A stretch of DNA of 64,000 bases from a virus. Made by a program: the position numbers and the translations under genes. Positions 8,883-59,611 of this stretch are shown in pieces (positions within the stretch are counted from its first letter, which is position 1; the number at the start of each line of letters is the position of its first letter). Where the stretch lies: positions 64,001 to 128,000 of the IMG/VR virus record IMGVR_UViG_3300009103_000004. One strand, given 5' to 3'. The notes beneath the pieces were generated by a model. That model had not been told where the DNA came from and ran no database searches. It worked only from the letters and a program-made list of their open reading frames with translations.

Positions 8883-10517
8883 CTACATATGCTTAACTCT
8901 GTATTCAACTATAGAGTATTTATGAGTTCTATATAAAATGTCATAAGGAGACCTAGCAACAGAAGAATTACGATGAGCTAGTTTTCTGTTAGCTCTTTCA
9001 GATTTTCTCCTGTCCTTAATAGGGTAATTCTCAGTACGCTCACTTGTCGAATGAGGTATATGGAAAATGTAGTCCGACAAAGAATTAAATATAACGGACG
9101 TCACACCACTCTCGTCAAATCGTTCATATAAGTCAGTATCGTCATGACCCCAACCAACAAGTCTCTCATTGTACCATACAAAATCAGATTTATTGAAAAC
9201 ACAAAAACCCCCAAATGATTCGGAAAACCACCAAGCACCACGAATGTAGTAATCTGCCAGCCTTGTGCCAGTTTTGCGGTCAAGCAATAGGTAGTCCATC
9301 CATGTAGAAGACTTTATTGCGTAGTCAGTATCCAGCTTGATAACTACATCAAACACAGCCATGTCCACGGCAAGATTGTATGCCTTTCCCAAAGAAAAAT
9401 AAGACTCGTCCTCTACACGTATAATCCTGACATACCCAGCATCGACAAAGTAACGTATGACTTCGTTATCCATAATAGGAGAATCAGAAGCCCAATCAAC
9501 TACTATGATCTCAGTTATATATGGACAGTTTAGCCAAGTTGGTAAAGATTTTAGCAAGTTATCTATACGATTCATACATGCGCAAACTGCAGAAATTTTT
9601 AAATCGGAATTCTTGTGGTAGGCCCGTACATCCTTAAACCGTTTAGTAACTGGCAACTCATATACAACTCCTGTAGGTTCTACTCCACAAGCGGTGCCTA
9701 CATAGAAAGAATCCAATTCTTCGAATTCGTAAGACTTTTTTAAACCCCGAGATTCTGCGTAAGCATCCCATTGCTTTGCCCGATCCTCCCTAGGCATAAA
9801 ATTATCCATCTCACTTATGTACGACCTATAGTTGGGAAGGTCAGTTCTCAAATCAAGCCCACGCCTGACACCAAACAGGCGCTTCTGTCTGTTCAAAACT
9901 ACAACAGTGTCGACAATACATATAACACCTCCGCATAATGATGGGTCTACAATCTGACAAAAAAGCATATCCATGCCCCAACCTACCAGCTTACCATCGT
10001 ATGCGCCCATGAACATAGAAAGTGACTCCCTCTTGAAAGTTACAAAGTTCATCTCAGTAAAATTAGTTACACGAGCGTAGTTTTCATATACGGGGCGCAT
10101 AAACCAATGCGGTAGAAGACCTGCAGCGTGCTGAGCTGCTCCAGCTATTAATAGTTCTGAGCTAGAGTTAAGTACGTCAACTATATCCGACAAACTGCCC
10201 TTCTGAATACGAGCATCGTCATCCCATACAGTTACTGTATCAAACAACTTAATTCTTGATGACGACTTATGATACACGTAATGAAGATTCTGAAACTTAC
10301 TCCCAGAGCGTGCGTAAAATTCGTCAGCACCGCCGCGCAACTGTTTTTTCTTAGATTTGGATGTACCATAGAATACTATAATAACATAAAACCTACTCTT
10401 CAAATAACGAAGAGAGTAAGACGCAAAAACCTCATGATCACCGGCGGAAATAAAAATACAATCTCTACGCCCAGATAATTTAGGTTTTTTAAAATTACTC
10501 CAAAAACTCATATCCAA
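8883..10517 (-). CDS. Two-domain glycosyltransferase (DUF707-like plus GT2/GT7-C)
   Basis: N-terminal WDDD and GWGMD; C-terminal CMNR, IIVVDW, LDTD, GWGHDD. Confidence 0.7.
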   Translation of the reverse strand: MDMSFWSNFKKPKLSGRRDCIFISAGDHEVFASYSLRYLKSRFYVIIVFYGTSKSKKKQLRGGADEFYARSGSKFQNLHYVYHKSSSRIKLFDTVTVWDDDARIQKGSLSDIVDVLNSSSELLIAGAAQHAAGLLPHWFMRPVYENYARVTNFTEMNFVTFKRESLSMFMGAYDGKLVGWGMDMLFCQIVDPSLCGGVICIVDTVVVLNRQKRLFGVRRGLDLRTDLPNYRSYISEMDNFMPREDRAKQWDAYAESRGLKKSYEFEELDSFYVGTACGVEPTGVVYELPVTKRFKDVRAYHKNSDLKISAVCACMNRIDNLLKSLPTWLNCPYITEIIVVDWASDSPIMDNEVIRYFVDAGYVRIIRVEDESYFSLGKAYNLAVDMAVFDVVIKLDTDYAIKSSTWMDYLLLDRKTGTRLADYYIRGAWWFSESFGGFCVFNKSDFVWYNERLVGWGHDDTDLYERFDESGVTSVIFNSLSDYIFHIPHSTSERTENYPIKDRRKSERANRKLAHRNSSVARSPYDILYRTHKYSIVEYRVKHM

Positions 10518-13787: not shown

Positions 13788-14530
13788 GTTTGGTTGGTAT
13801 TCCTAAGATGATTAGTATAACCTGACCGAAGTAGCGTCCTGTATTTATCGTCAGCTTCTTTCCCGTGTATACTTTTGGGAAAGGTATTAAAGTCAGGAGG
13901 GTCCTGTAGATCCCATATTACGTTATTAGGATTGATACTAGCTGCCAGCCAACTAAAGGAACGGTAACCAACTAAAAAATTCTTTGCAGTGGCAAGAGCA
14001 CAAAAGTCATCATCCACAGAATTTGAAACAAGCTCGCACTTCATGCCGAGGCCTTCCAGTGCAGTTACGAGCTCATCCAAGTAACGCTTTGAAGCAGAAG
14101 CCATCAGATTCGTATGGTTGCCGTGAAATATGCAACAACGATCAAAGCTCTCAGACAGTCCGTTGGAACTTATTATAAAAGCATATTCTTCAGGAGAGGG
14201 TGGCTTTTCTGTAGGTATCTTAAATACATCTCCAACTCGAACGTGTAAAGCCAGGGCATCATCCGGTACAGTCTCAAAAGTTCTTGAGCTAACTATACCT
14301 GATAAAAGGTCAAAGTCTAATTTCGTAAAAGAAGGCATAAGACCCCATGCGCTTTCCTGTAGTGGTAAGTCGACGCTAGACAGATATCTGTGCACTATAG
14401 AATCCTCAGGATGTAATAACCCTTTGGGATTCAAAGTTATTATCATATCCCCAAGGTTATATATGCTAAGCCACTTCTTCTGACCTTTGCTAAGTTTACG
14501 TGATCCCATTATATATATTTCTTCATACAA
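13784..14530 (-). CDS. Fucosyltransferase-like (GT11-like)
   Basis: LHVRVGD, DDDF..L..A and SFSW motifs. Confidence 0.6.
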   Translation of the reverse strand: MYEEIYIMGSRKLSKGQKKWLSIYNLGDMIITLNPKGLLHPEDSIVHRYLSSVDLPLQESAWGLMPSFTKLDFDLLSGIVSSRTFETVPDDALALHVRVGDVFKIPTEKPPSPEEYAFIISSNGLSESFDRCCIFHGNHTNLMASASKRYLDELVTALEGLGMKCELVSNSVDDDFCALATAKNFLVGYRSFSWLAASINPNNVIWDLQDPPDFNTFPKSIHGKEADDKYRTLLRSGYTNHLRNTNQT

Positions 14531-15468
14531 TCATCTATTTTAGAAAAATCTGGGTACCCTAGATGTTTATAATATCTTTGATGCAGGGACAGTCCTATCC
14601 TTTTACCTTTAAGTGTTAGTCCTACTAAAGGAGATGGGGCACCTCTATAATGATTTATGTAAGCCAGATTAGGATCGCATACGACACTATGCGTATCCTT
14701 ATCTGCACAACCAGCATTATGTATAGATATGATGACAGGACTCTTTGCTAAAGTTTTATACATACCTTTAACCATTACCCATTTCTTCTTCTTTGTTTTT
14801 TTTGTCGGGTGATTAAATGTATCATAAGCGTATTCATGCATACTTCGTACTGGCACACCTGGTTTTCGAGATGGGCGAACTCGCTGATGAAGACGAAGGG
14901 CACCTAGTTTACCTTCTAGATTATGTTCGGATAACAAATCACCAATAGTGTCAGCCTCCATCCAAATAAACTCATCTGGGTCTATCAACATCCACCAGTC
15001 GGAATCATTATTCTCAATAGCGTCTTTATAAATAGATAATTGGGCATTGCTATTAACCTGACGTTTTCTAGAAACTCCCCAATTTTTGGACTCCAGCCGA
15101 TATGGCTTGTGCCAAGGTTTTAAATGAACTCCAGGGTATTTGGATGCGATGCTACGTAACCGTTCCATATTATCTTCATAAGAAGCATCAGATATGTGAG
15201 CCCCGGGCTTCATTTTCCACGCCTTGCCATCTTCCCTATCACCCTCAAACCAATCCGCAAAGTCCTTCTTACGAACTGATTCCTCTTTATACGAGTCGCA
15301 TAGTTCAACATCCCTAGAAGAATCGATTAAACGCTTATCTATAGACTTAGGGCCGTTCTCATAAATATGTATATCCGTGAAGCCGATTGACAAGTTGTGG
15401 TCGATCCACTCTTCTATAAAATCAATCTCCAAGCTAGGAAGTATAACAGTGGCTATAGAATATTTCAT
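14509..15468 (-). CDS. GT92/GT2_4-like glycosyltransferase
   Basis: IEEWIDHN..IGF..I.IYEN, IDPDEF, INHY. Confidence 0.75.
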   Translation of the reverse strand: MKYSIATVILPSLEIDFIEEWIDHNLSIGFTDIHIYENGPKSIDKRLIDSSRDVELCDSYKEESVRKKDFADWFEGDREDGKAWKMKPGAHISDASYEDNMERLRSIASKYPGVHLKPWHKPYRLESKNWGVSRKRQVNSNAQLSIYKDAIENNDSDWWMLIDPDEFIWMEADTIGDLLSEHNLEGKLGALRLHQRVRPSRKPGVPVRSMHEYAYDTFNHPTKKTKKKKWVMVKGMYKTLAKSPVIISIHNAGCADKDTHSVVCDPNLAYINHYRGAPSPLVGLTLKGKRIGLSLHQRYYKHLGYPDFSKIDDCMKKYI

Positions 15469-19652: not shown

Positions 19653-20272
19653 TAACTAAATGAGTAATCAAATTTCTCACAATCAATTTTAAAGACATCA
19701 CCTATAATGTCCCGTGTTTCAGAATCATAGTAAGAAGAATATTTACCACGGTCGCCAGTATTAAGGCGGCGCAAAGTATTTTGCTTATCCGGCATATCCA
19801 ACTTTCTACATACCTTGTTAAAGTCAGTAAGTAATTGCTCAAAACGTCCTATGAAGTCAACTAGTATATTACCTGAATCATCGGTAAGCCACAGATATTG
19901 AGGACTAAGCTCGAGAGTAGAGTCCAAACCAGAATGCCCGAGAGTAGTGTTTGGATCATTATTAACCCATTGAACGAATCGAACCCAATCTGAAAAAAGG
20001 GTTGTACCGAACATGTTGGTGCATTGTTGCAGGAGTTTCTTGTGCGCGGGCCCATTAGATCGCAAACACATTGTATGGAATGATACCATACGGTCCCACG
20101 GATTCCTGACAAAAGCGAAAGCGAAGTAGTCCTCGTATGACGCACCCAACAAGGTCTTATATTGCAGGGCGGTAAGGTGGCGATCCCTCCTATTAAATAA
20201 AGTACGCGTTATAGATGTTCCTGCACACTTTGGAATGTGTACATGGATACACTTGTACTTGTTAGATATCAC
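19652..20272 (-). CDS. Sulfotransferase family 2
   Basis: HIPKCAGTS and VRNPWDRMVS; likely GTG start at 20272. Confidence 0.88.
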   Translation of the reverse strand: MISNKYKCIHVHIPKCAGTSITRTLFNRRDRHLTALQYKTLLGASYEDYFAFAFVRNPWDRMVSFHTMCLRSNGPAHKKLLQQCTNMFGTTLFSDWVRFVQWVNNDPNTTLGHSGLDSTLELSPQYLWLTDDSGNILVDFIGRFEQLLTDFNKVCRKLDMPDKQNTLRRLNTGDRGKYSSYYDSETRDIIGDVFKIDCEKFDYSFS

Positions 20273-21186
20273 AAACCAATGCTTTCCTTCCAACCAGGAA
20301 CCCAGTCCTCTAGGTTCATAGTCGGTGCCCAGCCCAGTACGTCACGTATCTTATTGTTGTCAGCAAGTGTCTCCCTAGGCTCTATGACAGGGTCCAGCTG
20401 AACTCGGTCACCACCGATAAGATCCGCCAAGTCGTTTACAGACCTGTTATCACAGTTACCTACGTTGAATACTTCACCACCACCAATCTTACTAGATTCA
20501 GATGCAAGGATGTTAGCACGTACGACATCACGTACGTAAGTGAAATCTCTACGCTGCTCACCATCACCGTTAATAGTCAGTGGCTTGCCTTGCAACCTCT
20601 GATCAGCAAAAATGCCCATAACCAGTGCGTATGCTCCAGTAAGAGGCTGTCTCTCACCGTAAACGTTAAAATACCTGAGGCAGACTGTAGGCAGAGAATA
20701 AACATCAGAGAATAGCTTACAGTAAATCTCGCCTATGAGCTTTTGCGCTGCATATGGGCTTAGGGGGTTTGTAGGGTGTTCCTCATCAGATGGTAAATAC
20801 TCAGGCTCTCCTAGTACCGAAGATGACGAGCTGAAGACGAAACGGTTGACATTGTAATCGCTACATAGCTTTAGCATGCGCAGAGTACCGCCAACATTTA
20901 CTGAGTCAAACCCAACGGGATCTTCTATAGAAGGCTGCACACGAGCCTTGGCGGCAAGATGAAACATAGTGTCAACACCACCGTCCAGCTCAGATATAAT
21001 AGCAGCTTCGGAACACTCCTGGCTTATATCGACTATAAGCAACTTTGACTTCGTGTTTACATTCTTATATACGCCGGTGGACATATCATCTACCACCAGA
21101 ACCTCGTCACCCTGTGATATGAGCTCGTCAACAAGATTGCTGCCAATGAAACCCGCACCACCTACTACTATATGTTTTTTACTCAT
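20269..21186 (-). CDS. NAD-dependent nucleotide-sugar epimerase/dehydratase
   Basis: GGAGFIG, YAAQK (YxxxK), LRYFNVYG, RDFTYV. Confidence 0.92.
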   Translation of the reverse strand: MSKKHIVVGGAGFIGSNLVDELISQGDEVLVVDDMSTGVYKNVNTKSKLLIVDISQECSEAAIISELDGGVDTMFHLAAKARVQPSIEDPVGFDSVNVGGTLRMLKLCSDYNVNRFVFSSSSSVLGEPEYLPSDEEHPTNPLSPYAAQKLIGEIYCKLFSDVYSLPTVCLRYFNVYGERQPLTGAYALVMGIFADQRLQGKPLTINGDGEQRRDFTYVRDVVRANILASESSKIGGGEVFNVGNCDNRSVNDLADLIGGDRVQLDPVIEPRETLADNNKIRDVLGWAPTMNLEDWVPGWKESIGL

Positions 21187-22667: not shown

Positions 22668-23389
22668 TTGTATCCAAGTAGCTCAAAATCTTCCTTAAAA
22701 TACTCCCGCGCCATGGCCTCGGACTCATCGTCATAATAATCCATATAAGGCTTACCAGCATCTTTTGCCTTTCGCGTAGTTGGGAGTTTTATCTTTGGTA
22801 TACCCAAATCAGAACATACGGCGCTGAAGTCATTCTGTAAATTCTCAAAGCGAATAAGCCTGTCAACCAGAAGTTGCCCATCACGGTTAGGTATATAACA
22901 AATTTGTGGGCGAGTGTGAGTCCACGTATGCGGTCTCCAATTTTTTTCCGCAGAACCAGAAAGTAACAAGCTCAAAGCTTCTTTAAATCCTACTTCCTGG
23001 TATTGAAGTACATAGTTATAACTAGAGACAAAGCGAGATAAAGGGTGTCTGCATTGGGTAAATTTGTAAGCATCTTCAAAAAATGCTTTGTAACGCTGTG
23101 AGTAATCCCACCACTGCTCACCGTTAACCTGGCAGATGTGAGTTTTGGATGGAAAATCCCCAGACAGGTACTTACCAGGAAACTTATCCAATGGATGGTG
23201 GTCAGACATGATTCGAATTATGCCGTCAGCATTTAAGCGTTTACTCGTTCGGTATTTATCAAACATATCACACTCAAACTCATGTGAATCTGCATGCTTG
23301 CGCTCAAAATAAAGATCTGACAAACCCAGAAGTGCAGCCCTGACTGATGTGCTGGCCGTCTTGGGTGCTCTAAACCAAATTGCCTTCAT
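22664..23389 (-). CDS. Sulfotransferase family 2
   Basis: PKTASTS, RHPLSRFVS, DFELLGY; start moved to MKAIW at 23389. Confidence 0.85.
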   Translation of the reverse strand: MKAIWFRAPKTASTSVRAALLGLSDLYFERKHADSHEFECDMFDKYRTSKRLNADGIIRIMSDHHPLDKFPGKYLSGDFPSKTHICQVNGEQWWDYSQRYKAFFEDAYKFTQCRHPLSRFVSSYNYVLQYQEVGFKEALSLLLSGSAEKNWRPHTWTHTRPQICYIPNRDGQLLVDRLIRFENLQNDFSAVCSDLGIPKIKLPTTRKAKDAGKPYMDYYDDESEAMAREYFKEDFELLGYK

Positions 23390-26234
23390 GTGTCCATTTA
23401 GTGTTAAAATATTTTTGTTTTTCTGAAAAAGAATCAGGAAACAATTTATTACCAGTACCACCCCATTCATGTTCAAAGCCTCCGGATGAGTTGATTCGTA
23501 GTATCTTGTATCCACTATCCTTAAGCTGAAGGCATAAGTCTGTATCTTCTAGCCAAAAGGGCTTGAACTTTAAATCCATCTCAAATGCAACACCATAGAG
23601 AGATCTTCTGAAAATTTGACAACAACCAGCTAGAGTGTCCACAAACCCCTCGCCATCACCGTCAAAGACATCAGTATGTTCAAACGTAGAGTAGTCTTGA
23701 AAATAAGCACCCACAACTCCACACATACCAATACCAGTGTCGGATAACACAAATTTTGCTCTATCAAGAAAAGAACTGTTACGGATGTAAGAGTCACTGT
23801 CTACACTAACAACTATGTCGCCACGCGCTTCCTCAAACAGAACAGCCCTACCCCCGGCAACACCGTCATTGTCATCAGAATAAATTACTCTAACTTTTGA
23901 AAAGCGCTCCTCAATCAAGCGAAGCCACTCTCTAAACTCAGAGTTACTAGCGTTATCATATATTAACACCTCCTCTATGTCATCACGATGCTCAGCTAAC
24001 TCTAACCACGTAGACATGCAATCCTTTGTTTTATCCAACCTGTTGTGTGTTAAAAATACTAAGGATATAGAGGCCTGGGACATATCGTTGTAAGCAGGGG
24101 CTGCAAAACTGGCGTACATGGATTTAGAAGCGGATATGTATTCAGGCGTAATAACTTCATCGTTAACAGACTCATCATGATTCCACAAATGTACCGAGTA
24201 GGATCCGCGATATTCCTCTTCGTACTGCGCGCTATCTTCAGATAACAAACAATCATTTATCTTATCCCACAGAGGCCAGAAAAAAGAATGCGATCCCAAA
24301 ATCTTCAGTTTGTTCTGAGGCCAGTGCTTGGAATTTGCTATAACGTTAGGGACAACAACAGAATGCCAATCCCAAGCGTCGTCCCTACCCGCAGATTTGA
24401 AGGACCTGTATGAGTATATCCAATCAAGTATAAATTCAGATCCAGGCTTGGCCACTATAGTCGCATTACACAGACCATAATAATCATATTTATCGTAAAG
24501 TGCAGGATCCATAAAAATGCGAGCGGAATCCTGTATACCAAGAGATGTCTCAATATCGTAAAGATTTTCAAATGAAGAAACAGTTATGGTGTCCAAATCA
24601 AGGTATACACCACCATACTTGTACAACATTAGCAACCTAACCACATCAGACATATGGGCGTAATGCACAACTGGGTTACCAAAGATCTCGTGTACAAGAT
24701 CAACCTTGTTCATAGTGAGGTAGGGCTTTATTAGATCCCACCACACACCATGTGGCTCAGAATGATAGTGGAAGTAAACAGCGTCTGGAGCGTTATAGTG
24801 TATAGCTGTCTTAATAGCCAAGTATTGAACAAAAGTAAACTCCTCTGGAATATTGGACATACCAAAAGAGAAGTGGAATATATTCGGAACCTTGTTGTGA
24901 TCATACGAAATAGGATCTGGTATAAAATCCGGGGTTACGCTTGTGCCATTCTCAAAAACATAACCGCCTAACTCAATGTCTTCGGAAAAAGACTTGGCTA
25001 CGATCTCCCTAGTCTCGTCGTCGTAGTAATCCGAATAATGGTTGGGGTATGTCTTGATGGTGTCGCTGAATGTGACACCTTTGAATATAGAAGAGTCAAG
25101 TGAGTGCCTATCTTCGACGCAAAAGACATGATCAACACAGTCGCCCAAGTAATACTGTTGTTTGCGAACATTGGTTGTACGAACGTAGTCTTCAAAACTT
25201 ATAGTGTCTGAAGCACGTTTGTCAAAATCACGAAAGTACATAGAAACCAACCGCTCCCAGGGGTTAACAACAAAAGCAAAAGAAGTGTAGGAGTCACAAG
25301 TGTCCTGACCGTAAATATCTCTAACCTCAGAAGCCCTGAGCTCTACCGGGTTGTACAGGCCAGTGTCCACCATTGCTTGTTTGCAATTATCATCTGGGAG
25401 CGTAATTGGTATGAGTTGACGCTTGTGGTTTATAAGAGGCAAATGAAGCCTGTACAAATCTGCGTCCAGTTTGGTTGAAGGCTTACGCATGGAGAACCAG
25501 CCCGGGCCACACTTGCTGTCTTTACCAGAATGGTTCTCACCAGTACCCATGTTATATGCAGCAGCAGTTACATTGGGCCATTTCTCCAAACTGTCATAAC
25601 AGTTAAAGAAATAAGTCTCGTAGTTCATATGACACCCCAGAACACCCTTGAGGAAAAAAGGATGTACATTATCTCGTATGTCCTTGGCTGAAGACTCAAC
25701 GGACAACTTGTCCATGGATATATCTGTTATAAGAGTACGGTAGTTAAGTATATGAGAAGTACCGCAAGTTTCTCTGAAGCCCACGCGATGAGTAATCTTG
25801 TAGTTCTGTACATACACACCGCGATCAAACCACCACCCCATCCTACCAGGCATGTCCTTAACCGACGAAACTGTCTTATCCGAAATAAAATCATCAGCGT
25901 CAAAGAACATTACATACTCAGGGTCATACTTCTCAGCCGCTATCAACCCTACCACAAACTTAAGGCCCCTGTCATAATTACAAGCTGGCACACCAGTAAC
26001 TGGGCCATCAGCAAGAGATGGCGAATCGAAGCCCACCTCTACAAACTCAACGTGATCCTTTATTCTATGGTTATCGGAAAAGTCATCCAGTATCCTGTTG
26101 CACACTACTATTACACGAAAGTCCTTGTCTGTCTGGCTGCACACCGAAAATAGGGTGTCTCTAAGCAGGTCCCAGACGCGCTCATAGTAAAAGCTATTCT
26201 TAGGGTGCCTTACGGAGGTTATAAATGTAAACAT
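23370..26234 (-). CDS. 954-aa multidomain enzyme: GT-A + partial sulfotransferase + GT32 + GT2
   Basis: FFDADD; VNPWERLVS and YSDYYD; SDVVRL..LYKYGGVYLDLD; LTHNR..YDNAS..VDSD..EDTD. Confidence 0.8.
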   Translation of the reverse strand: MFTFITSVRHPKNSFYYERVWDLLRDTLFSVCSQTDKDFRVIVVCNRILDDFSDNHRIKDHVEFVEVGFDSPSLADGPVTGVPACNYDRGLKFVVGLIAAEKYDPEYVMFFDADDFISDKTVSSVKDMPGRMGWWFDRGVYVQNYKITHRVGFRETCGTSHILNYRTLITDISMDKLSVESSAKDIRDNVHPFFLKGVLGCHMNYETYFFNCYDSLEKWPNVTAAAYNMGTGENHSGKDSKCGPGWFSMRKPSTKLDADLYRLHLPLINHKRQLIPITLPDDNCKQAMVDTGLYNPVELRASEVRDIYGQDTCDSYTSFAFVVNPWERLVSMYFRDFDKRASDTISFEDYVRTTNVRKQQYYLGDCVDHVFCVEDRHSLDSSIFKGVTFSDTIKTYPNHYSDYYDDETREIVAKSFSEDIELGGYVFENGTSVTPDFIPDPISYDHNKVPNIFHFSFGMSNIPEEFTFVQYLAIKTAIHYNAPDAVYFHYHSEPHGVWWDLIKPYLTMNKVDLVHEIFGNPVVHYAHMSDVVRLLMLYKYGGVYLDLDTITVSSFENLYDIETSLGIQDSARIFMDPALYDKYDYYGLCNATIVAKPGSEFILDWIYSYRSFKSAGRDDAWDWHSVVVPNVIANSKHWPQNKLKILGSHSFFWPLWDKINDCLLSEDSAQYEEEYRGSYSVHLWNHDESVNDEVITPEYISASKSMYASFAAPAYNDMSQASISLVFLTHNRLDKTKDCMSTWLELAEHRDDIEEVLIYDNASNSEFREWLRLIEERFSKVRVIYSDDNDGVAGGRAVLFEEARGDIVVSVDSDSYIRNSSFLDRAKFVLSDTGIGMCGVVGAYFQDYSTFEHTDVFDGDGEGFVDTLAGCCQIFRRSLYGVAFEMDLKFKPFWLEDTDLCLQLKDSGYKILRINSSGGFEHEWGGTGNKLFPDSFSEKQKYFNTKWTHEGNLV

Positions 26235-30819: not shown

Positions 30820-31048
30820 ACAACAAATAAGAATGATGCTTGATAAGTATCAGGAGTCTAACTTTACAGTACCTGAAGTTCGGAGGTGCCTAGCTGAGGT
30901 TATTGAAAACCAGCTAGAGAAAAGAATTAAGAAGATGGAGGAGCATCGTGTTCGAGGAGTTGATGGGATTGAAAAATTTCCGCATAACGATCAAGAGCGC
31001 TATCCCGGGTCAAATGTGTCTGACCAAACTCCCACGCCCCCTGTATAA
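30803..31048 (+). CDS. Hypothetical protein
   Basis: Overlaps the previous gene start/stop; tail overlaps the convergent GT90 gene. Confidence 0.5.
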   Translation: MTRSVEQQIRMMLDKYQESNFTVPEVRRCLAEVIENQLEKRIKKMEEHRVRGVDGIEKFPHNDQERYPGSNVSDQTPTPPV

Positions 31049-40528: not shown

Positions 40529-40873
40529 CTAAGATTTTGATATGTTCTTGTTAAACTTAAGTAGCCCCGAATCAGTGATTACCTTGTCCACTACGAGAGT
40601 CATGGTACTAAGTATGTCACCTTGTGCCTCTTGCTGCTTATCATTAATGTCAGCTTGAGCGCTAACAAAATTACTCATTGCAAGAGTTCCGATACCCAGC
40701 TCCTTGACTACAGTAGTCAGGGATTTGTTTAGGGTATCCATTTTTTTATCTATCTGCTCACTCAGCTGAACTTGACGCTCCATCAACTGGATCATCTGTT
40801 CCATCATCTGAGTGGGTCCCACTGTCTGTGGGTAGTTTATTACGTTCCCCGATTCGTCTGTTATTATTTCCAT
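40529..40873 (-). CDS. Hypothetical coiled-coil protein
   Basis: Heptad-like 114-aa ORF. Confidence 0.55.
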   Translation of the reverse strand: MEIITDESGNVINYPQTVGPTQMMEQMIQLMERQVQLSEQIDKKMDTLNKSLTTVVKELGIGTLAMSNFVSAQADINDKQQEAQGDILSTMTLVVDKVITDSGLLKFNKNISKS

Positions 40874-40997
40874 CTTCTTCTAGTATTGTTATTAATTTAT
40901 CTAACCTGTCACTAATAGAATCTAGTGACTGTACCAATCTAGGTAGCGTTCCCTCGTAGAACTGAACGCCCCTGCTTGTTTCGTGGAATTGAATCAT
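40758..40997 (-). CDS. Hypothetical protein
   Basis: FHET..G..FYEGTLP.L N-terminus; overlaps the next gene. Confidence 0.55.
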   Translation of the reverse strand: MIQFHETSRGVQFYEGTLPRLVQSLDSISDRLDKLITILEEDGNNNRRIGERNKLPTDSGTHSDDGTDDPVDGASSSAE

Positions 40998-41003
40998 AAA
41001 AAA

Positions 41004-41074
41004 TGGTGGAGGTGGGCAGATTCGAACTGCCGTACCATTATCGCACGGACAATGGTCGAAACCGATTCACCCCC
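41004..41074 (-). ncRNA. Mini-tmRNA (tRNA-like domain only, 71 nt)
   Basis: GGGGGTG AATCGGTTTCGA CCATTGTC-CGTGC-GATAATGG TAC GGCAG-TTCGAAT-CTGCC CACCTCC ACCA; G3.U70 pair, stemless D loop, T arm, CCA. Confidence 0.8.
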
Positions 41075-41442
41075 ACAATGTTAATAAGTTTAGCTCTTGT
41101 ACGCCTAGCGTCCTCAAGCGCCCTGTTATAAGTTAGGCGTTTCTTACCAAGTTTCCAAACCCAACCTGTTGGGTGTTGCAAGTATGTTGCGCCATTCTCC
41201 CGAAATGTCCCTGCCCAAAACGGGAGGACAAAACATTTGGATAAGGATACCACCTCTTTGTGGTCTTCATACTTTCTCTTAAACCTAAGCTCTGGTGCCT
41301 TACAGGTACCGTCAGCTAGAAACTCTATAATCTCAACACCTAAGTCTACTCTTGGGTAATCACGTAGCTGCACGTGCCTGTACCTGCTTCCCACCGCTAA
41401 TGATCTAGTCCCATCTACAATATTAATTATTTTATCATGCAT
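41038..41442 (-). CDS. Hypothetical protein
   Basis: Downstream of promoter motif 41494-41503; 3' end overlaps the mini-tmRNA. Confidence 0.55.
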   Translation of the reverse strand: MHDKIINIVDGTRSLAVGSRYRHVQLRDYPRVDLGVEIIEFLADGTCKAPELRFKRKYEDHKEVVSLSKCFVLPFWAGTFRENGATYLQHPTGWVWKLGKKRLTYNRALEDARRTRAKLINIVGVNRFRPLSVR

Positions 41443-41571: not shown

Positions 41572-42186
41572 CTATTCATATCCCTTAAAATCTGCAGGAG
41601 ATAGTTTTCTTACAAGTTCCTTACCAGTAACCTTGTCCAAGTAAGTAACATTTGGAAAGCTTCCGGGTCCGAATGCATTGGATGATGTGGGTGTATGGCC
41701 CTCATCAACTAGCTTCAAAAAAGTTTTTCTAGCAGGGCCTTCGACATAAGTATTCGCAAAATCCTTCTGCCATTCGCCAAAATGCTTTCTACTCATAACG
41801 CCGGTCGCAACATTACCATATGACTTACCAAGCATTGGACCGCGCATTGCTGCTTTGGGGTCTTTTAAGTAGTCATCATAGGTGCTAAAAAATTTTCTCA
41901 TCCCACTAGGATTAAGTCTCTTAGCCTCGTTATACCAAGGGTTAACAGGCTGTTCTTTGCTAACATTCCCTAGAGAGAGCGGTTTCTTTGGCATTTGCCC
42001 AACCTTAGGAACAGATCTCCTAACATTAGGAACAGGTCTTACAATAGCAGAAGATTCTGGATGTTTAAATGATTTTGGTATTGGAGGAGGAGCTACAGCT
42101 CGTGGCTTTAACTTGGGGCGTACCTTGGGCTTTATTCTGGGAACAGCTTCCTTAACCAGCCAATACTTTTCCTTGTTGGTCATCAA
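41572..42186 (-). CDS. NKEKY-leader family protein
   Basis: MTNKEKYWLVKEA then VPRIKPKVRP. Confidence 0.75.
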   Translation of the reverse strand: MMTNKEKYWLVKEAVPRIKPKVRPKLKPRAVAPPPIPKSFKHPESSAIVRPVPNVRRSVPKVGQMPKKPLSLGNVSKEQPVNPWYNEAKRLNPSGMRKFFSTYDDYLKDPKAAMRGPMLGKSYGNVATGVMSRKHFGEWQKDFANTYVEGPARKTFLKLVDEGHTPTSSNAFGPGSFPNVTYLDKVTGKELVRKLSPADFKGYE

Positions 42187-42608
42187 CCACCTGTGTAATG
42201 CGGAAATTGATTTCCAAGAAGTTTCTTTAGTTTCTCACTCTGAGCAGATGAGTCTAAAGTTCCCCAAGACCCAGTACCATATCTTTTATTGTAGCTATCT
42301 ATTGCAGAACGACCAGCAGCGTTGGCTCTATCCTGCTGCCACTTAGCTCTCCCGGTAAGTGGAGGAGGAGCGGGAGCTGGGATCGACACGTTTACTGGAG
42401 GAACTGGAGGAGGAGATCCAACTGGTGGTTTTTTAGAAACATTACCGGGATTGTGTGGTACAGTTGGCTTAACTACCTTTCCCTTGGCGGGTGGTGCTAT
42501 TTGAGCTCCACTGGCAGAATCAAATGTCCCATACGAATCAGAGTATGATCCAGACGTTGAGTTAGACTCAGCTAACTTTACTAAAAAATATTTCTCTTTA
42601 TTGTTCAT
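42183..42608 (-). CDS. NKEKY-leader family protein
   Basis: MNNKEKYFLVKLA. Confidence 0.75.
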   Translation of the reverse strand: MNNKEKYFLVKLAESNSTSGSYSDSYGTFDSASGAQIAPPAKGKVVKPTVPHNPGNVSKKPPVGSPPPVPPVNVSIPAPAPPPLTGRAKWQQDRANAAGRSAIDSYNKRYGTGSWGTLDSSAQSEKLKKLLGNQFPHYTGG

Positions 42609-42618
42609 AGTTATTTGT

Positions 42619-42927
42619 TCATTTCAGACCGCCAGAAGCAGCTAATATCCCGGCCAAGGCAGCAGGTATCATAGCAGCTTGGTAGGGGTTCATTTGAAAT
42701 GGGTTTACGTATTCCCACCAGTTATCTCGTTTTCGCGTAGTAAAGAATCCATCTTCTCCCCGTTGTCTGATGTCTCTAACTTCCTTCTTATATTCTGACA
42801 TTGGCTCGCAATACGTACCATCTTCCTTTTCAACACACCAACGTTCAGGAACTTCTCTCTTGGGATCTGGTTCCTGAATCCCAAAAAAAGCTTCCTTAAC
42901 CAGCCAATATTTCTCTTTGTTGTTCAT
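42619..42927 (-). CDS. NKEKY-leader family protein
   Basis: MNNKEKYWLVKEA. Confidence 0.75.
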   Translation of the reverse strand: MNNKEKYWLVKEAFFGIQEPDPKREVPERWCVEKEDGTYCEPMSEYKKEVRDIRQRGEDGFFTTRKRDNWWEYVNPFQMNPYQAAMIPAALAGILAASGGLK

Positions 42928-42929
42928 GG

Positions 42930-43271
42930 TTACTCCTTTCCTTCCTCAGAATTAAGATATTCTAAATTAGCTATATCCTGTTCTGTAAGTTCTTCGCCTC
43001 TCTTTTTCTTAGCCTCTAGGTCTTTCTTTTGTTTTTTTGCTCTTCCGCCTAAAGGTCCCGTAGTATGAAGGGGAGCATAAGCACCTATTGACGCGCCAGG
43101 CATAAAAAGAGACATTAAAGTAGCGTAAGCCCGAACCTTATCCTTATTAAAAGGCTTGGCATTAGGTCCACGCATTCTAGCTACCAAGCCGGGGTGTTTG
43201 ATGCCACGCTCTTCCCAGGATTTATATTCCTTTGCAGTTTTGAATAGAAAATATTTCTCTTTGTTACTCAT
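42930..43271 (-). CDS. NKEKY-leader family protein
   Basis: MSNKEKYFLFKTA. Confidence 0.75.
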   Translation of the reverse strand: MSNKEKYFLFKTAKEYKSWEERGIKHPGLVARMRGPNAKPFNKDKVRAYATLMSLFMPGASIGAYAPLHTTGPLGGRAKKQKKDLEAKKKRGEELTEQDIANLEYLNSEEGKE

Positions 43272-43274
43272 CAG

Positions 43275-43820
43275 TTACATTATAGACGCTCGAAAAGCTT
43301 TCAACTTCTCGTTCGCAGTTTGCTCTCGTATCCATTCAAGATTCTTTCTCCGATGCTCTATATACTCTCTTCTCTCTTCTTCAGTAGGTGGCTCGTGTCC
43401 ACGTCGTGCCCTCCAGTCATCAAGATCCTTGGTTTCAGAAATATTCTTTTCGTAAACCTCCAACAATCTACCCAAATCCTTCCTATCAAAACTAGGTGCG
43501 CCTACCCTTCCTTCCAAGAAATCATCTGGCGAATTATGAGTACCCTCAATCATACGATCCTCTAAAAGACGATTGACCAATTCTTTGTCGGTCTCCCCCC
43601 AAAACTTATACCAAGGCCGATCTTCCCCATGCATCATCTCATGCACCAAAGGACCTTCAGTCCCCTTATCCCCCAGCCATCCTGTTACGTTATACTTGTC
43701 AGCAGCATCTCCACCCTCAGTTAATCGAATGTCATCAGGAGTGAGCTCTCTATCGTATCCGGCAATACCCAAGCCCATACCAGCTAACTTAACCAAATAA
43801 TATTTCTCTTTGTTATTCAT
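43275..43820 (-). CDS. NKEKY-leader family protein
   Basis: MNNKEKYYLVKLA. Confidence 0.75.
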   Translation of the reverse strand: MNNKEKYYLVKLAGMGLGIAGYDRELTPDDIRLTEGGDAADKYNVTGWLGDKGTEGPLVHEMMHGEDRPWYKFWGETDKELVNRLLEDRMIEGTHNSPDDFLEGRVGAPSFDRKDLGRLLEVYEKNISETKDLDDWRARRGHEPPTEEERREYIEHRRKNLEWIREQTANEKLKAFRASIM

Positions 43821-44007
43821 TTTCTATTTTAATTAAAAAACAACCTATGTTCTTACTTAGCTGTGTAACTCGTTCCAGAGCTTCTTCTTTTTTCTTACCC
43901 CGCATTTTTTTAGCTTCCTCATAAAGGTCCAGTATAAAGTCATTAGTTATCTTATGTTTAACCACGCCAACTACTTTATCTTCCTTACTCAAGGTGACTG
44001 ATTCCAT
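43813..44007 (-). CDS. Hypothetical protein without the leader
   Basis: 64 aa, coupled to both neighbours. Confidence 0.55.
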   Translation of the reverse strand: MESVTLSKEDKVVGVVKHKITNDFILDLYEEAKKMRGKKKEEALERVTQLSKNIGCFLIKIENE

Positions 44008-44735
44008 TAAGGGTTATACTTACTAGAGGTACTAGGAGAATATATATCCCTAAGCGCACCAGACATAGGACCCTCTTCAGCCCAGCCTCGTTGGAACTCA
44101 AGGTCGTCAAGGTCGTCATAAACAGAACCAGGTCTTTTATTGCTCCTAGCCCAGGGAGGTGCGTCGTCGGATATGCCAGTCGGACGTTTACCACTTAGAG
44201 ACCTCTGATAATCTGCCCATCCTGGAGACATAGCAGTCGGTATGGGGTCGCCGGGCTTCCAGAGAGGTGGAGGGTCTTTGGGGAATACGGGTTTTTTGGG
44301 AGTCCGCTTAGTCTTAGGAGCACCAGTTATAGGACTAGTTCCTTTACTTCCTCCTGAAGGAGGACTTTTCCAAGTCGCCTGTGGGGTTCCAAATCTTTTA
44401 AGTTCCGTTTCATTCGGAAACCATTTTCTCATAAATAGCTCTCTTTGTTGTTCGAGAGGCGAATTTCCGCGTAATTCTCTATCGAGAGACTTCGGCTTAG
44501 CTGTCACCTCTTTTTGTTTACCAGTTATAGGACTAGTTCCTTTACTTCCTCCTGAAGGATTTGTAACGGCTGCTGTTTGCTTGCCTGATGGTGGCTTGGA
44601 CTTAATAGGAAATACGTCTGTGTCCCTTGGGACTTGTATCGGCTTAGCTAAAACCTTGCTAGGCTTGGGCCTAACCTTAGGTCTAATCTTAGGTATAGCG
44701 TACTTAACCAAATAATATTTCTCTTTGTTGTTCAT
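44007..44735 (-). CDS. NKEKY-leader family protein, Pro/Lys-rich
   Basis: MNNKEKYYLVKYA then IPKIRPKVRP; TAAVTNPS. Confidence 0.75.
   Translation of the reverse strand: MNNKEKYYLVKYAIPKIRPKVRPKPSKVLAKPIQVPRDTDVFPIKSKPPSGKQTAAVTNPSGGSKGTSPITGKQKEVTAKPKSLDRELRGNSPLEQQRELFMRKWFPNETELKRFGTPQATWKSPPSGGSKGTSPITGAPKTKRTPKKPVFPKDPPPLWKPGDPIPTAMSPGWADYQRSLSGKRPTGISDDAPPWARSNKRPGSVYDDLDDLEFQRGWAEEGPMSGALRDIYSPSTSSKYNP
44322..44559. repeat. 40-bp direct repeat pair (44322-44361 and 44520-44559)
   Basis: ACCAGTTATAGGACTAGTTCCTTTACTTCCTCCTGAAGGA twice, encoding PSGGSKGTSPITG. Confidence 0.9.
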
Positions 44736-45349
44736 TTCCTTGGGGTCATGTTATAGCCTGTTATTTCTTCTTTGTTAGTGGTAAGATTCGTGTTAATTGG
44801 AGTCCCAGTTGCGTAAGTTCTCGTAGGAGCATTTCCAGTCATGGCAAAAGAACCTAACGCTTGTTGCCAAGGACTCTGCGCAGTACCTGGTTGGTTTGTA
44901 GTAATCTGATCCTTAGTTATATTGCCGTTCTGCATCACTGTCTCAGCACTAACATGTTCCCCGAACTGCTTGGCTTGATTGTTCATGCCTGGTGTAGGAT
45001 TAGCAGATATTCTATCTCCCATAGTGTTCATGTCTGAGCCATATAAAGAAGTGGTAGCTTTGTTTTGCGCCCAAGTCTTGGCTCCTTGTGGTGCAAAACT
45101 ATTCCACATGGTGCCCGCCATACCTACCAGTGGCTGGGCAACCGTATTGAACATAGCGCCAGCTTGCTGTCCAGCTTGCCCAGCTTGCTGTAATACGTTA
45201 GTTGGTTTTTCACTCATTACTCCTGCGGGAGGTCCTGAGAAAGCTGCACCTATCGAGCCTGCAGGATGTTTGAAAAAGTCTCCTACAGAATAGTTCTGTT
45301 GGTTGGCTAACTTAGTTAAATATAATTTTTCTTTGTTGTTCATATTCAT
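44732..45349 (-). CDS. NKEKY-leader family protein, Q/A/G/T-rich
   Basis: MNNKEKLYLTKLA. Confidence 0.75.
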   Translation of the reverse strand: MNMNNKEKLYLTKLANQQNYSVGDFFKHPAGSIGAAFSGPPAGVMSEKPTNVLQQAGQAGQQAGAMFNTVAQPLVGMAGTMWNSFAPQGAKTWAQNKATTSLYGSDMNTMGDRISANPTPGMNNQAKQFGEHVSAETVMQNGNITKDQITTNQPGTAQSPWQQALGSFAMTGNAPTRTYATGTPINTNLTTNKEEITGYNMTPRK

Positions 45350-45891
45350 CGAGTACTGTTTTGATCCAAAGCACGAGAGTTAGGAAATGATCTAGAATCC
45401 AGTTGACTTCCTACTACACCGCCAGCACCCATAGCAGCAGGAACAGCAAGAACAGAAGCGGGGATGCCGCCCTTTTGAGCTGCCTGTCCTGACAAACCTC
45501 CGCCAGATGGGTTAAACTTTAGCTCATCAACTACAGAACGAGGTATTACAGGAGCAGTTGTATCCATTTTCTTAGGTGCCTGCAGTTTAGGTCTGGGGGT
45601 TGAAGGCGAAGCTGCTGGCGGAGCTGCTGCTGGAGCTGGCCTCTTAGGCATGGGCATAACGTTTGGTGTCTCTCCCTTTGAAGGATTTGTAGCAGCTCCT
45701 GGTCTCCTACCACTAGAACGAAGATGTTCAAACGAATCTTTGTTCTCACGTACGCGTTTAAGATAATGCTCTAAATGAAGATCTCTATGACCAAAGCGTG
45801 GGTCAGCCTTAGGCCTTGGGCGAGGATTTGGCCTAACCTTTAACCTAGGAACAGCTTCCTTAACTAAAAAATATTTCTCCTTATTATTCAT
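45346..45891 (-). CDS. NKEKY-leader family protein
   Basis: MNNKEKYFLVKEA then VPRLKVRPNPRP; GAATNPS. Confidence 0.75.
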   Translation of the reverse strand: MNNKEKYFLVKEAVPRLKVRPNPRPRPKADPRFGHRDLHLEHYLKRVRENKDSFEHLRSSGRRPGAATNPSKGETPNVMPMPKRPAPAAAPPAASPSTPRPKLQAPKKMDTTAPVIPRSVVDELKFNPSGGGLSGQAAQKGGIPASVLAVPAAMGAGGVVGSQLDSRSFPNSRALDQNSTR

Positions 45892-59534: not shown

Positions 59535-59611
59535 TGGTGGGCCCTGTCGGGTTCGAACCGACGACCTGCCGATTATGAGTCGGACGCTCTAACCAACTGA
59601 GCTAAGGGCCC
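59535..59611 (-). tRNA. tRNA with CAT anticodon, most likely Ile2 (lysidine type)
   Basis: GGGCCCTTAGCTCAGTTGGTTAGAGCGTCCGACTCATAATCGGCAGGTCGTCGGTTCGAACCCGACAGGGCCCACCA; 77-nt cloverleaf with CCA; body resembles ileX-type tRNAs. Confidence 0.9.

What the first reader, a model, noticed from the sequence alone, without database searches (positions are those of the whole stretch)
41004..41074. A tmRNA reduced to its tRNA-like domain
Seen: an ssrA-type 5' end (GGGGGTGAATCGGTTTCGAC) and 3' end (GGCAGTTCGAATCTGCCCACCTCCACCA) joined by only an 8-bp helix with a 5-nt loop. The G3.U70 alanine determinant, stemless D loop, T arm and CCA are intact; no tag reading frame or pseudoknots. Known: SmpB and AlaRS recognise this domain. 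Inference: an SmpB decoy that blocks trans-translation, or a tag-free ribosome rescue RNA.
Basis: partly seen in the sequence, partly recalled or inferred. Interest (0 to 1): 0.82.

Follow-up and report, generated by a model that had tools for sequence, protein, structure and literature searches.

The report
Phage tag-less mini-tmRNA gene
A 167-kb uncultured, probably marine phage carries a real 71-base gene for only the alanine-accepting, tRNA-like end of the bacterial ribosome-rescue RNA (tmRNA). One such phage RNA (mycobacteriophage DS6A) is already published, so this is a new member of a known but under-annotated kind that probably competes with the host's rescue-and-tag system.

Summary
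On the minus strand, 41074->41004, lies a 71-nt RNA gene. It matches Rfam tmRNA end to end (60.3 bits, cut-off 47, E 4e-21), with 308 of 374 model positions replaced by a 5-nt loop. It has a 7-bp acceptor stem with G3.U, a stemless D-loop, a 9-bp connector hairpin, a T arm and an encoded ACCA. It has no tag frame and no pseudoknots.

It is not a one-off. Two pattern scans gave about 45 distinct look-alikes of 62-85 nt, nearly all on viral contigs. Covariation is strong: 96% of cells paired against 49-61% for slid controls. In the scan that left the acceptor stem free, 36 of 36 kept G1-C, G2-C and G3.U, so alanine identity looks selected. ARAGORN misses every one tested.

The phage encodes no SmpB, ArfB/RF, Pth, RtcB or integrase, so the RNA must use host factors. 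Near-identical contigs keep the RNA. One contig switches, 21 nt into the gene, to a different mini-tmRNA.

The kind is published: DS6A is "TLD only", and a similar RNA inhibits tmRNA in E. coli. This scan has already noted it on other DNA (95 notes, at least 82 genomes).

The likely role is a charged competitor of host tmRNA for SmpB and stalled ribosomes. Expression, charging and binding were not tested.

The parts
41004..41074 (-). 71-nt tag-less mini-tmRNA (tRNA-like domain only). RNA position i = window 41074-(i-1). Acceptor 5' strand 41074-41068; D-loop analogue 41067-41057; connector helix 41056-41048 with 41042-41034, loop 41047-41043; T arm 41031-41015; acceptor 3' strand 41014-41008; ACCA 41007-41004.
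   Evidence: Rfam RF00023 60.3 bits, E 4.4e-21; constrained fold; family covariation; identical in near-identical contigs L036 and L037.
41038..41442 (-). 134-aa ORF of unknown function. Its last 12 codons and its UAA stop (41040-41038) lie inside the RNA gene (37-nt overlap). 5' maturation of the RNA would leave this mRNA without a stop codon (inference).
   Evidence: ORF list. Codon-usage score is positive only in this frame: 0.16 to 0.22 against -0.28 to -1.27 in the other five. No Pfam or PHROG family; only near-identical copies in 5.8 billion proteins. Nonsense variant E37* in L037; a different 131-aa tail in L035.
40758..40997 (-). 79-aa ORF whose ATG starts 6 nt (UUUUUU) after the encoded CCA. 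The RNA is therefore wedged between two same-strand ORFs and has no convincing promoter of its own.
   Evidence: promoter/terminator scan at background level; coding score 0.27 in frame.

Best explanation
This is a functional phage gene for a tag-less ('TLD-only') tmRNA. It is most likely cut out of a long minus-strand transcript by host RNase P at the 5' end and by host 3' processing at the encoded CCA. Host alanyl-tRNA synthetase would charge it through G3.U70 and A73, and host SmpB (with EF-Tu) would bind it. Because it has no resume codon, tag frame or pseudoknots, it cannot carry out trans-translation. It would instead compete with host tmRNA for SmpB and for the empty A site of stalled ribosomes. 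ssrA tagging, and the proteolysis and mRNA decay tied to it, would then be suppressed during infection. Shown here: the identity, the architecture, conservation in a large phage family, selection on the alanine identity pair, and the absence of phage-encoded partner proteins. Inferred: processing, charging, SmpB binding, competition, and what happens to the ribosome after peptidyl transfer.
For: Identity: RF00023 above cut-off with the whole central domain deleted.
Family: the first pattern scan gave 26 viral contigs, against 3 small MAG contigs in 185,579 prokaryote genomes (596 Gb); two of those three were checked and carry phage families. With the free-acceptor scan, the narrower metagenome scan and L035 this makes about 45 distinct sequences. 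All 21 tested sequences reach the RF00023 cut-off.
Structure: 96% of cells paired against 49-61% for slid controls. 13 of 19 pairs change on both sides, including all 7 connector-helix pairs and 4 of 5 T-arm pairs, which the search pattern did not fix.
Charging under selection: in a scan that left the acceptor stem free, 36/36 distinct minis have G1-C72, G2-C71 and G3.U70, while positions 4-7 vary. No tRNA-like-domain candidate lacked G3.U.
Processing with tRNAs: relatives sit inside tRNA clusters or directly before a tRNA.
Host dependence: no SmpB, RF-1/ArfB, Pth, RtcB or integrase domain in the 94%-complete genome, and no neighbour protein shared across the family.
Literature: DS6A is 'TLD only', and a similar molecule strongly inhibits tmRNA whether or not it is chargeable (Mao 2009 as cited in PMC4131195 and PMC11915505). 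[quoted passage not shown]
Against: No dedicated promoter or terminator was found. The unconstrained minimum-energy fold is not the tRNA-like one. The position before the invariant A next to the T arm is U here (GUAC), where most relatives and the Rfam consensus have G (GGAC); the effect on SmpB binding is unknown. The published inhibition did not need charging, so conservation of G3.U is not explained by titration alone. It is also unclear why blocking rescue would help a phage that needs ribosomes. The host is unknown.
Confidence: 0.58

Rival explanations
1. Productive tag-free rescue. Ala-charged mini-tmRNA with SmpB and EF-Tu enters stalled ribosomes and takes the nascent chain. The ribosome is then freed by drop-off plus Pth, or by a host release factor. 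Phage proteins made from cut mRNAs would gain one alanine instead of a degradation tag. The benefit would be ribosome recycling without proteolysis, rather than inhibition.
For: G3.U70 is kept in 36/36 relatives although the published inhibition does not need charging. Peptidyl transfer to a TLD-only RNA works in vitro. CDS-less tmRNAs persist in jakobid mitochondria together with SmpB and are thought to help with incomplete mRNAs (PMC11915505).
Against: No release step is known for a peptidyl-TLD. The phage brings no Pth, ArfB or RF of its own. The only in vivo test of a similar RNA showed inhibition of tmRNA.
Confidence: 0.22
2. Cis-coupled control of the upstream gene, or operon punctuation. 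The tRNA-like fold mainly serves as an RNase P/3'-processing site that splits the transcript. This leaves the 134-aa ORF without a stop codon and the next ORF with a 6-nt leader. The released RNA then decides whether the truncated product is tagged.
For: The stop codon of a frame with coding-like codon usage lies 37 nt inside the RNA, and the next ATG is 6 nt after the CCA. The published parallel is smpB reading into ssrA in Carsonella (PMC4131195). Other minis are also tightly abutted by ORFs, with the next start 11-29 nt downstream in six further types.
Against: The overlap is not a family trait, and many minis sit among tRNAs or behind their own promoter. The ORF carries a nonsense codon in a near-identical contig (L037) that keeps the RNA intact. 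Its tail changes with the RNA allele in L035, so the overlap looks incidental. A mere processing signal would not need G3.U.
Confidence: 0.08
3. Anti-defence decoy. The RNA mimics tmRNA or tRNA to absorb a host immune factor. Candidates are a nuclease that cuts t(m)RNA, or a defence protein with an SmpB-like RNA-binding domain such as type II/III-A CoCoNuT systems.
For: Literature leads only. SmpB-like domains occur in CoCoNuT defence proteins (PMC11090510), and t(m)RNA fragments serve an anti-CRISPR protein (PMC11662646). Minis are spread across unrelated phages.
Against: No defence or anti-defence gene is linked to minis in the loci examined. Nothing in this window points to such a target. 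It does not explain strict alanine identity.
Confidence: 0.07
4. Decaying remnant of a once full-length phage tmRNA, or an assembly artefact, with no function.
For: No expression evidence. This particular sequence has no close relative beyond near-identical contigs.
Against: The deletion is exact and leaves a closed helix. The same sequence is assembled independently in JGI and ENA samples. Family-wide covariation and the invariant identity pairs are those of a selected RNA.
Confidence: 0.03

Closest known systems
'TLD only' (CDS-less) tmRNA of mycobacteriophage DS6A (tmRNA Website tmID 11587; Mao et al. 2009 as cited in PMC4131195 and PMC11915505)
   Same: Phage-encoded. Acceptor stem with G3.U, stemless D-loop, T arm, and a connector helix in place of the whole mRNA-like and pseudoknot part. 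I located it at JN698994 28478-28560; the architecture is the same.
   Different: DS6A is 83 nt with a two-part connector (internal A-rich loop), does not encode CCA, scores 43.2 bits (below the Rfam cut-off), and sits in a temperate actinophage that has an integrase and an RtcB-like ligase. The window RNA is 71 nt with a plain 9-bp hairpin, encodes CCA, scores 60.3 bits, and sits in a 167-kb phage with no integrase or RtcB found. There is no sequence relationship beyond the shared tmRNA core.
Full-length bacterial and phage tmRNA (Rfam RF00023; e.g. mycobacteriophage Bxz1 group, Bacillus phage G, two-piece tmRNA of Melnitz, PMC9004378)
   Same: The same tRNA-like domain, and presumably the same partners (AlaRS, SmpB, EF-Tu, RNase P).
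   Different: No resume codon, no tag reading frame, no stop codon and no pseudoknots, so it cannot template tagging or normal termination.
CDS-less organellar tmRNAs: jakobid mitochondria and ~65-bp genes of Mallomonadaceae plastids (PMC11915505)
   Same: Natural tmRNAs reduced to about the tRNA-like domain and kept by selection.
   Different: Those are the only tmRNA of an organelle and work with an imported SmpB. Here the RNA is added by a virus on top of a host that presumably has full tmRNA, so it acts as a competitor rather than as the sole system.
Engineered TLD-only constructs (crystallography with SmpB; Shimizu and Ueda 2006 peptidyl-transfer assays, cited in PMC3895274; the E. coli construct of Mao 2009)
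   Same: Nearly the same design: the 5' and 3' tmRNA ends joined by a short hairpin. These bind SmpB, accept peptide in vitro and inhibit tmRNA in vivo.
   Different: Those are laboratory designs based on host tmRNA. This one is natural, with its own sequence.
smpB reading into ssrA in Carsonella (PMC4131195)
   Same: A protein-coding frame whose stop lies inside the tmRNA gene, so RNA maturation would make that mRNA non-stop.
   Different: There the upstream gene is smpB itself, giving a feedback loop. Here it is an orphan 134-aa ORF that is dispensable in at least one contig (L037).

Membership tests
tmRNA (ssrA, Rfam RF00023) | Score at or above the curated Rfam gathering threshold | tested here: met
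   60.3 bits against 47, E 4.4e-21, model 1-374 (repeated).
tmRNA (ssrA, Rfam RF00023) | tRNA-like domain: 7-bp acceptor stem with G3.U70, discriminator A, CCA, T arm with GUUCGAAUC-type loop, D-loop without stem | tested here: met
   Direct reading plus the cmscan alignment and the constrained fold.
tmRNA (ssrA, Rfam RF00023) | mRNA-like domain with resume codon, tag reading frame and stop codon | tested here: not met
   308 model positions are replaced by a 5-nt loop. ARAGORN finds no tmRNA or tag peptide.
tmRNA (ssrA, Rfam RF00023) | Pseudoknots PK1-PK4 | tested here: not met
   Only 23 nt lie between the D-loop analogue and the junction before the T arm, and all are used by one hairpin.
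tmRNA (ssrA, Rfam RF00023) | Alanylation by AlaRS and binding by SmpB | not testable with these tools
   Indirect only: G3.U70 is kept in 36/36 relatives, and the G18 and A42 positions flanking the connector are invariant in 19 sequences.
TLD-only / CDS-less tmRNA (DS6A type) | Complete tRNA-like domain whose two halves are joined directly by a P2-like helix, total about 60-120 nt | tested here: met
   71 nt with a 9-bp helix. It aligns with 18 other minis, and DS6A has the same layout.
TLD-only / CDS-less tmRNA (DS6A type) | Encoded by a phage, in addition to the host tmRNA | tested here: met
   IMG/VR virus record of 167,189 bp, 94% complete. Phage-type families are present. The genome has only one tmRNA-like hit.
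TLD-only / CDS-less tmRNA (DS6A type) | Structure kept by compensatory change among relatives | tested here: met
   96% of cells paired against 49-61% for slid controls; 13 of 19 pairs change on both sides.
TLD-only / CDS-less tmRNA (DS6A type) | Inhibits host trans-translation when expressed | not tested
   Known only for a similar E. coli construct (Mao 2009, cited in PMC4131195 and PMC11915505).
Canonical tRNA-Ala | Anticodon arm and D stem | tested here: not met
   No anticodon arm. ARAGORN calls no tRNA here. Within the Rfam tRNA clan the tmRNA model is the best match.
Phage attP fragment of ssrA (integration-site copy) | Only the 3' part of ssrA, next to an integrase | tested here: not met
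   Both the 5' and 3' halves are present and joined. No tyrosine integrase domain was found in the genome.

The most novel reading that the evidence does not exclude
The charged mini-tmRNA is not just a sponge. It enters stalled ribosomes and gives a tag-free end to translation. Phages across many lineages would thereby switch host ribosome rescue from 'rescue and destroy' to 'rescue and keep'. In this phage the gene is also placed so that its own maturation turns the upstream gene into a non-stop message that it then handles. This would be a viral reprogramming of ribosome quality control by a 71-nt RNA alone.
Probability: 0.2. Interest if true: 0.75.

Novelty: new member of a known kind. Interest (0 to 1): 0.42.

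Why it matters
Trans-translation is the main ribosome-rescue route in bacteria and is studied as a drug target. A natural, very small RNA that many unrelated phages carry, and that looks built to occupy SmpB and stalled ribosomes, would be a ready-made probe and inhibitor of that route. It would also show that phages manipulate ribosome quality control.

The published record holds one phage example (DS6A). Standard phage annotation uses ARAGORN (PMC7162821, PMC9004378), which missed every copy tested here. The class is therefore much larger than the literature suggests.

This copy adds three things: a very compact form (71 nt), a free-acceptor test showing that alanine identity is conserved, and a coding frame that runs into the RNA gene.

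Tried and rejected
- Close relatives of this RNA or phage: none. Megablast of 4 kb against cultured phages, two strict RNA patterns in IMG/VR, two neighbour proteins in IMG/VR, blastn of the 71 nt against phages (only T-arm/acceptor matches to tRNAs) and tblastn of a 954-aa protein all failed. Only near-identical contigs turned up through exact protein look-ups.
- Own promoter or terminator: the sigma-70 and terminator scans are at background level. A Bacteroidota-type -7 box upstream is only a near match, is badly spaced, and has no -33 TTTG (read by eye). Rejected.
- Host: upstream regions lack Shine-Dalgarno enrichment. Some Bacteroidota genomes carry a tmRNA-like 5' end within 2-3 mismatches of this RNA's 5' 20-mer. 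No other phylum was compared, so the host stays open. In the one MAG that holds both a full tmRNA and a mini, the two tRNA-like domains differ, so minis are not simple recent copies of that genome's tmRNA.
- Conserved partner protein near minis: none across types.
- Mao et al. 2009 itself is not held; it is cited only through PMC4131195 and PMC11915505.
- The Atlas look-up of the epimerase confirmed a tailed-phage affinity but gave no host.
- attP-fragment and pseudogene readings were rejected (see the membership test and the rivals).

Full report
**What is there**

The plus strand at 41004-41074 is the reverse complement of an RNA-sense sequence that reads 41074->41004. cmscan against Rfam 15 gives one hit there, RF00023 tmRNA. 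It scores 60.3 bits (gathering score 47), E 4.4e-21, and spans model positions 1-374, with 308 central positions replaced by 5 nt. The whole-genome search repeats it as the only tmRNA-like hit.

Numbering the RNA 1-71:
- G1-G7 pairs with C61-C67, and G3 pairs with U65 (the tRNA 3:70 position).
- Positions 8-18 (AAUCGGUUUCG) are the stemless D-loop analogue.
- A19-C27 pairs with G33-U41, giving 9 pairs (one G.U) around the loop CGUGC.
- G44-G48 and C56-C60 form the T stem around UUCGAAU.
- A68-C-C-A71 is encoded.

The unconstrained minimum-energy fold is a different structure (-32.1 kcal/mol, z -3.85). The tRNA-like fold costs -29.8 kcal/mol. The fold is argued from homology and covariation, not from energy. 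ARAGORN reports nothing here.

**Where it lies**

The window is bases 64001-128000 of a 167,189-bp IMG/VR virus record that CheckV rates 94% complete.
- By a simple ORF tiling, 171 of 181 genes are on the minus strand, and starts are preceded by A/T-rich sequence without Shine-Dalgarno enrichment.
- Few proteins match PHROGs or Pfam. Those that do include an Ant-like anti-repressor, a methyltransferase, several glycosyltransferases and a sugar epimerase whose nearest Atlas clusters are mostly Uroviricota.
- Nothing similar exists among 50,697 cultured-phage records or, by two proteins, in IMG/VR.
- The genome has one tRNA (Met) and no full-length tmRNA.
- It has no SmpB, RF-1/ArfB, Pth, RtcB or tyrosine-integrase domain.

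Whatever the RNA does, it does with host proteins.

**Local anatomy**

A 134-aa ORF (41442->41038) runs 37 nt into the RNA gene, and its UAA is RNA positions 35-37. Its codon usage scores positive only in that frame, so it is probably a real gene. It has no family and no relatives beyond near-identical copies. The next ORF's ATG (40997) follows the CCA after UUUUUU. Promoter-like and terminator-like sites are at background level.

The simplest reading is a polycistronic transcript from which the RNA is excised. That would leave the upstream message without a stop codon. The published parallel is smpB reading into ssrA in Carsonella (PMC4131195).

**Near-identical contigs**

Exact-protein look-ups found contigs from other samples.
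- L036 (ENA) and L037 (JGI 3300009130, a 21-kb contig) are 99.85-99.9% identical over 0.9-1.3 kb and carry the RNA unchanged.
- In L037 the 134-aa ORF has a nonsense change (E37*).
- L035 (ENA, 2.7 kb) is 100% identical for 647 nt up to window 41054, which is 21 nt into the RNA. It then continues as a different mini-tmRNA with a longer two-part connector, T stem UGGGG/CCCCA, the same acceptor 3' strand, and then ACGA instead of ACCA. The DNA downstream is unrelated. This allele also passes RF00023, at 56.1 bits.

L035 is either a mosaic junction inside the gene or an assembly join across a shared 21-mer. In either case a second mini-tmRNA with the same first 21 nt exists in those samples.

**A family, not a curiosity**

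A pattern for the two tmRNA ends joined by 12-42 nt found 26 IMG/VR contigs. The same pattern found only 3 places in 185,579 prokaryote genomes (596 Gb), all on small MAG contigs. I checked two of these and both carry PHROG families. A narrower pattern found 3 metagenome contigs.

- All 21 tested sequences reach the RF00023 cut-off, at 50.6-91.2 bits. ARAGORN calls none of those scanned.
- On an alignment of 19 distinct sequences, 96.0% of cells form standard pairs, against 49-61% when partners are slid by 1-3 columns.
- 13 of 19 pairs change on both sides. These include all 7 tested connector pairs and 4 of 5 T-stem pairs, none of which the pattern fixed. 0 of 500 shuffles reach the observed covariation score.
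- G18 and A42, which flank the connector helix, are invariant.
- Related phages carry syntenic minis with compensatory differences, for example L004 against L008.
- Several minis lie within tRNA clusters. L033 has a TTGACA-17-TATAAT promoter directly upstream and a tRNA 3 nt downstream.
- No neighbouring protein family is shared across types.

**Is charging selected?**

The first pattern imposed GGGG...CUCCACCA, so it could not test the alanine determinant. A second scan fixed only UUCGAC, the T loop and ACCA.

Among its hits, 36 distinct sequences have a perfect 7-bp acceptor stem 4-11 nt before UUCGAC. All 36 have G1-C72, G2-C71 and G3.U70, while positions 4-7 vary. The four hits with 6 of 7 pairs are ordinary tRNA pieces.

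Keeping G3.U across sequences this diverged points to selection for alanylation. A pure SmpB sponge would not need that.

**What is known**

- Hudson, Lau and Williams list mycobacteriophage DS6A as "TLD only". They note that a similar molecule strongly inhibits tmRNA whether or not it is chargeable, perhaps by titrating SmpB (PMC4131195, citing Mao et al. 2009).
- The 2025 tmRNA database paper repeats this. It adds CDS-less plastid genes of about 65 bp beside the tag-less mitochondrial tmRNAs (PMC11915505).
- I located the DS6A gene at JN698994 28478-28560. It is 83 nt, scores 43.2 bits, has the same layout with a two-part connector, and does not encode CCA.
- Peptidyl transfer to a TLD-only RNA occurs in vitro (Shimizu and Ueda 2006, as cited in PMC3895274).
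- Literature searches found no paper describing the class across phages. Phage surveys annotate tmRNA with ARAGORN (PMC7162821, PMC9004378), which explains the gap.
- Within this scan the class has been noted many times on other DNA: 95 notes in at least 82 genomes, several followed up with the same conclusions.

**How it most likely works**

- Shown: a conserved, structured RNA with alanine identity, encoded by a phage with no protein partner of its own.
- Established knowledge: RNase P, AlaRS, SmpB and EF-Tu all recognise exactly the parts that are retained. The parts needed to resume and terminate translation are absent.
- Inferred: the RNA is excised, charged, bound by SmpB and delivered to stalled ribosomes, where it competes with host tmRNA. 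Tagging and the linked decay therefore fall.

Whether the ribosome is then trapped or freed without a tag is open. I put about 0.58 on the competitor reading and 0.22 on productive tag-free rescue. The remainder goes to cis-processing control, anti-defence decoy and remnant readings.

**Limits**

No expression, charging or binding evidence was obtained. The host is unknown; the lack of Shine-Dalgarno use and the 5'-end similarity to some Bacteroidota tmRNAs are only hints.

**Verdict**

The gene is real and correctly described. It is a new member of a published but barely annotated kind, and its function is still untested.

Noticed in passing
window 41572-45891 (minus strand): A run of consecutive small genes whose products all begin with nearly the same ~13 residues (MNNKEKYWLVKEA-like) and then diverge into unrelated, partly low-complexity bodies. 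No Pfam or PHROG family matches.
   Followed up: partly
L035:2537-2619 (+), junction at window 41054: A contig identical to the window for 647 nt switches, 21 nt into the RNA gene, to a different mini-tmRNA allele (56.1 bits, no encoded CCA) and to unrelated downstream DNA. This is either a mosaic boundary inside the gene or a k=21 assembly join.
   Followed up: partly
L037:5001-5111 (= window 41442-41332): In a 99.85%-identical contig from JGI 3300009130 the 134-aa ORF upstream of the RNA carries a nonsense change (E37*) plus a second change 6 nt further on. The RNA itself is unchanged.
   Followed up: yes
window 40529-40997 (minus strand): The 79-aa and 114-aa ORFs downstream of the RNA overlap by 116 nt in different frames, and both show coding-like codon usage. 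Gene callers on related contigs chose differently between them.
   Followed up: partly
whole genome G000 (window = 64001-128000): 171 of 181 tiled ORFs lie on one strand, and start codons are preceded by A/T-rich sequence with no Shine-Dalgarno enrichment. This suggests a host that does not rely on SD pairing.
   Followed up: partly
window 8883-10517, 14509-15468, 20269-21186, 23370-26234, 30927-31832 (minus strand): A cluster of glycosyltransferases (GT2, GT7C, GT90, GT92-like, and a 954-aa multi-domain one) plus an NAD-dependent sugar epimerase. This is an unusually large sugar-modification set for a phage.
   Followed up: no
L033:3734-3950 (minus strand): A complete small unit: a TTGACA-17-TATAAT promoter, an 81-nt mini-tmRNA, then a tRNA 3 nt downstream. 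It is a good candidate for showing independent transcription of a mini.
   Followed up: partly
L003:46-127 and L018:337-417: These two minis start one base upstream of the first pattern match (acceptor GGGGGUG, not GGGGUGG). That register shift accounts for the only unpaired acceptor cells in the covariation table.
   Followed up: yes
G001: C86:2177-2550 and C92:5116-5196: A Bacteroidales MAG holds a full-length tmRNA (173 bits) and, on a separate 5.7-kb contig beside three tRNAs, a mini-tmRNA. The mini's tRNA-like domain differs from that of the full-length gene.
   Followed up: partly
window 59535-59611 (minus strand): The only tRNA gene of the phage: tRNA-Met (CAU), 71.3 bits.
   Followed up: no
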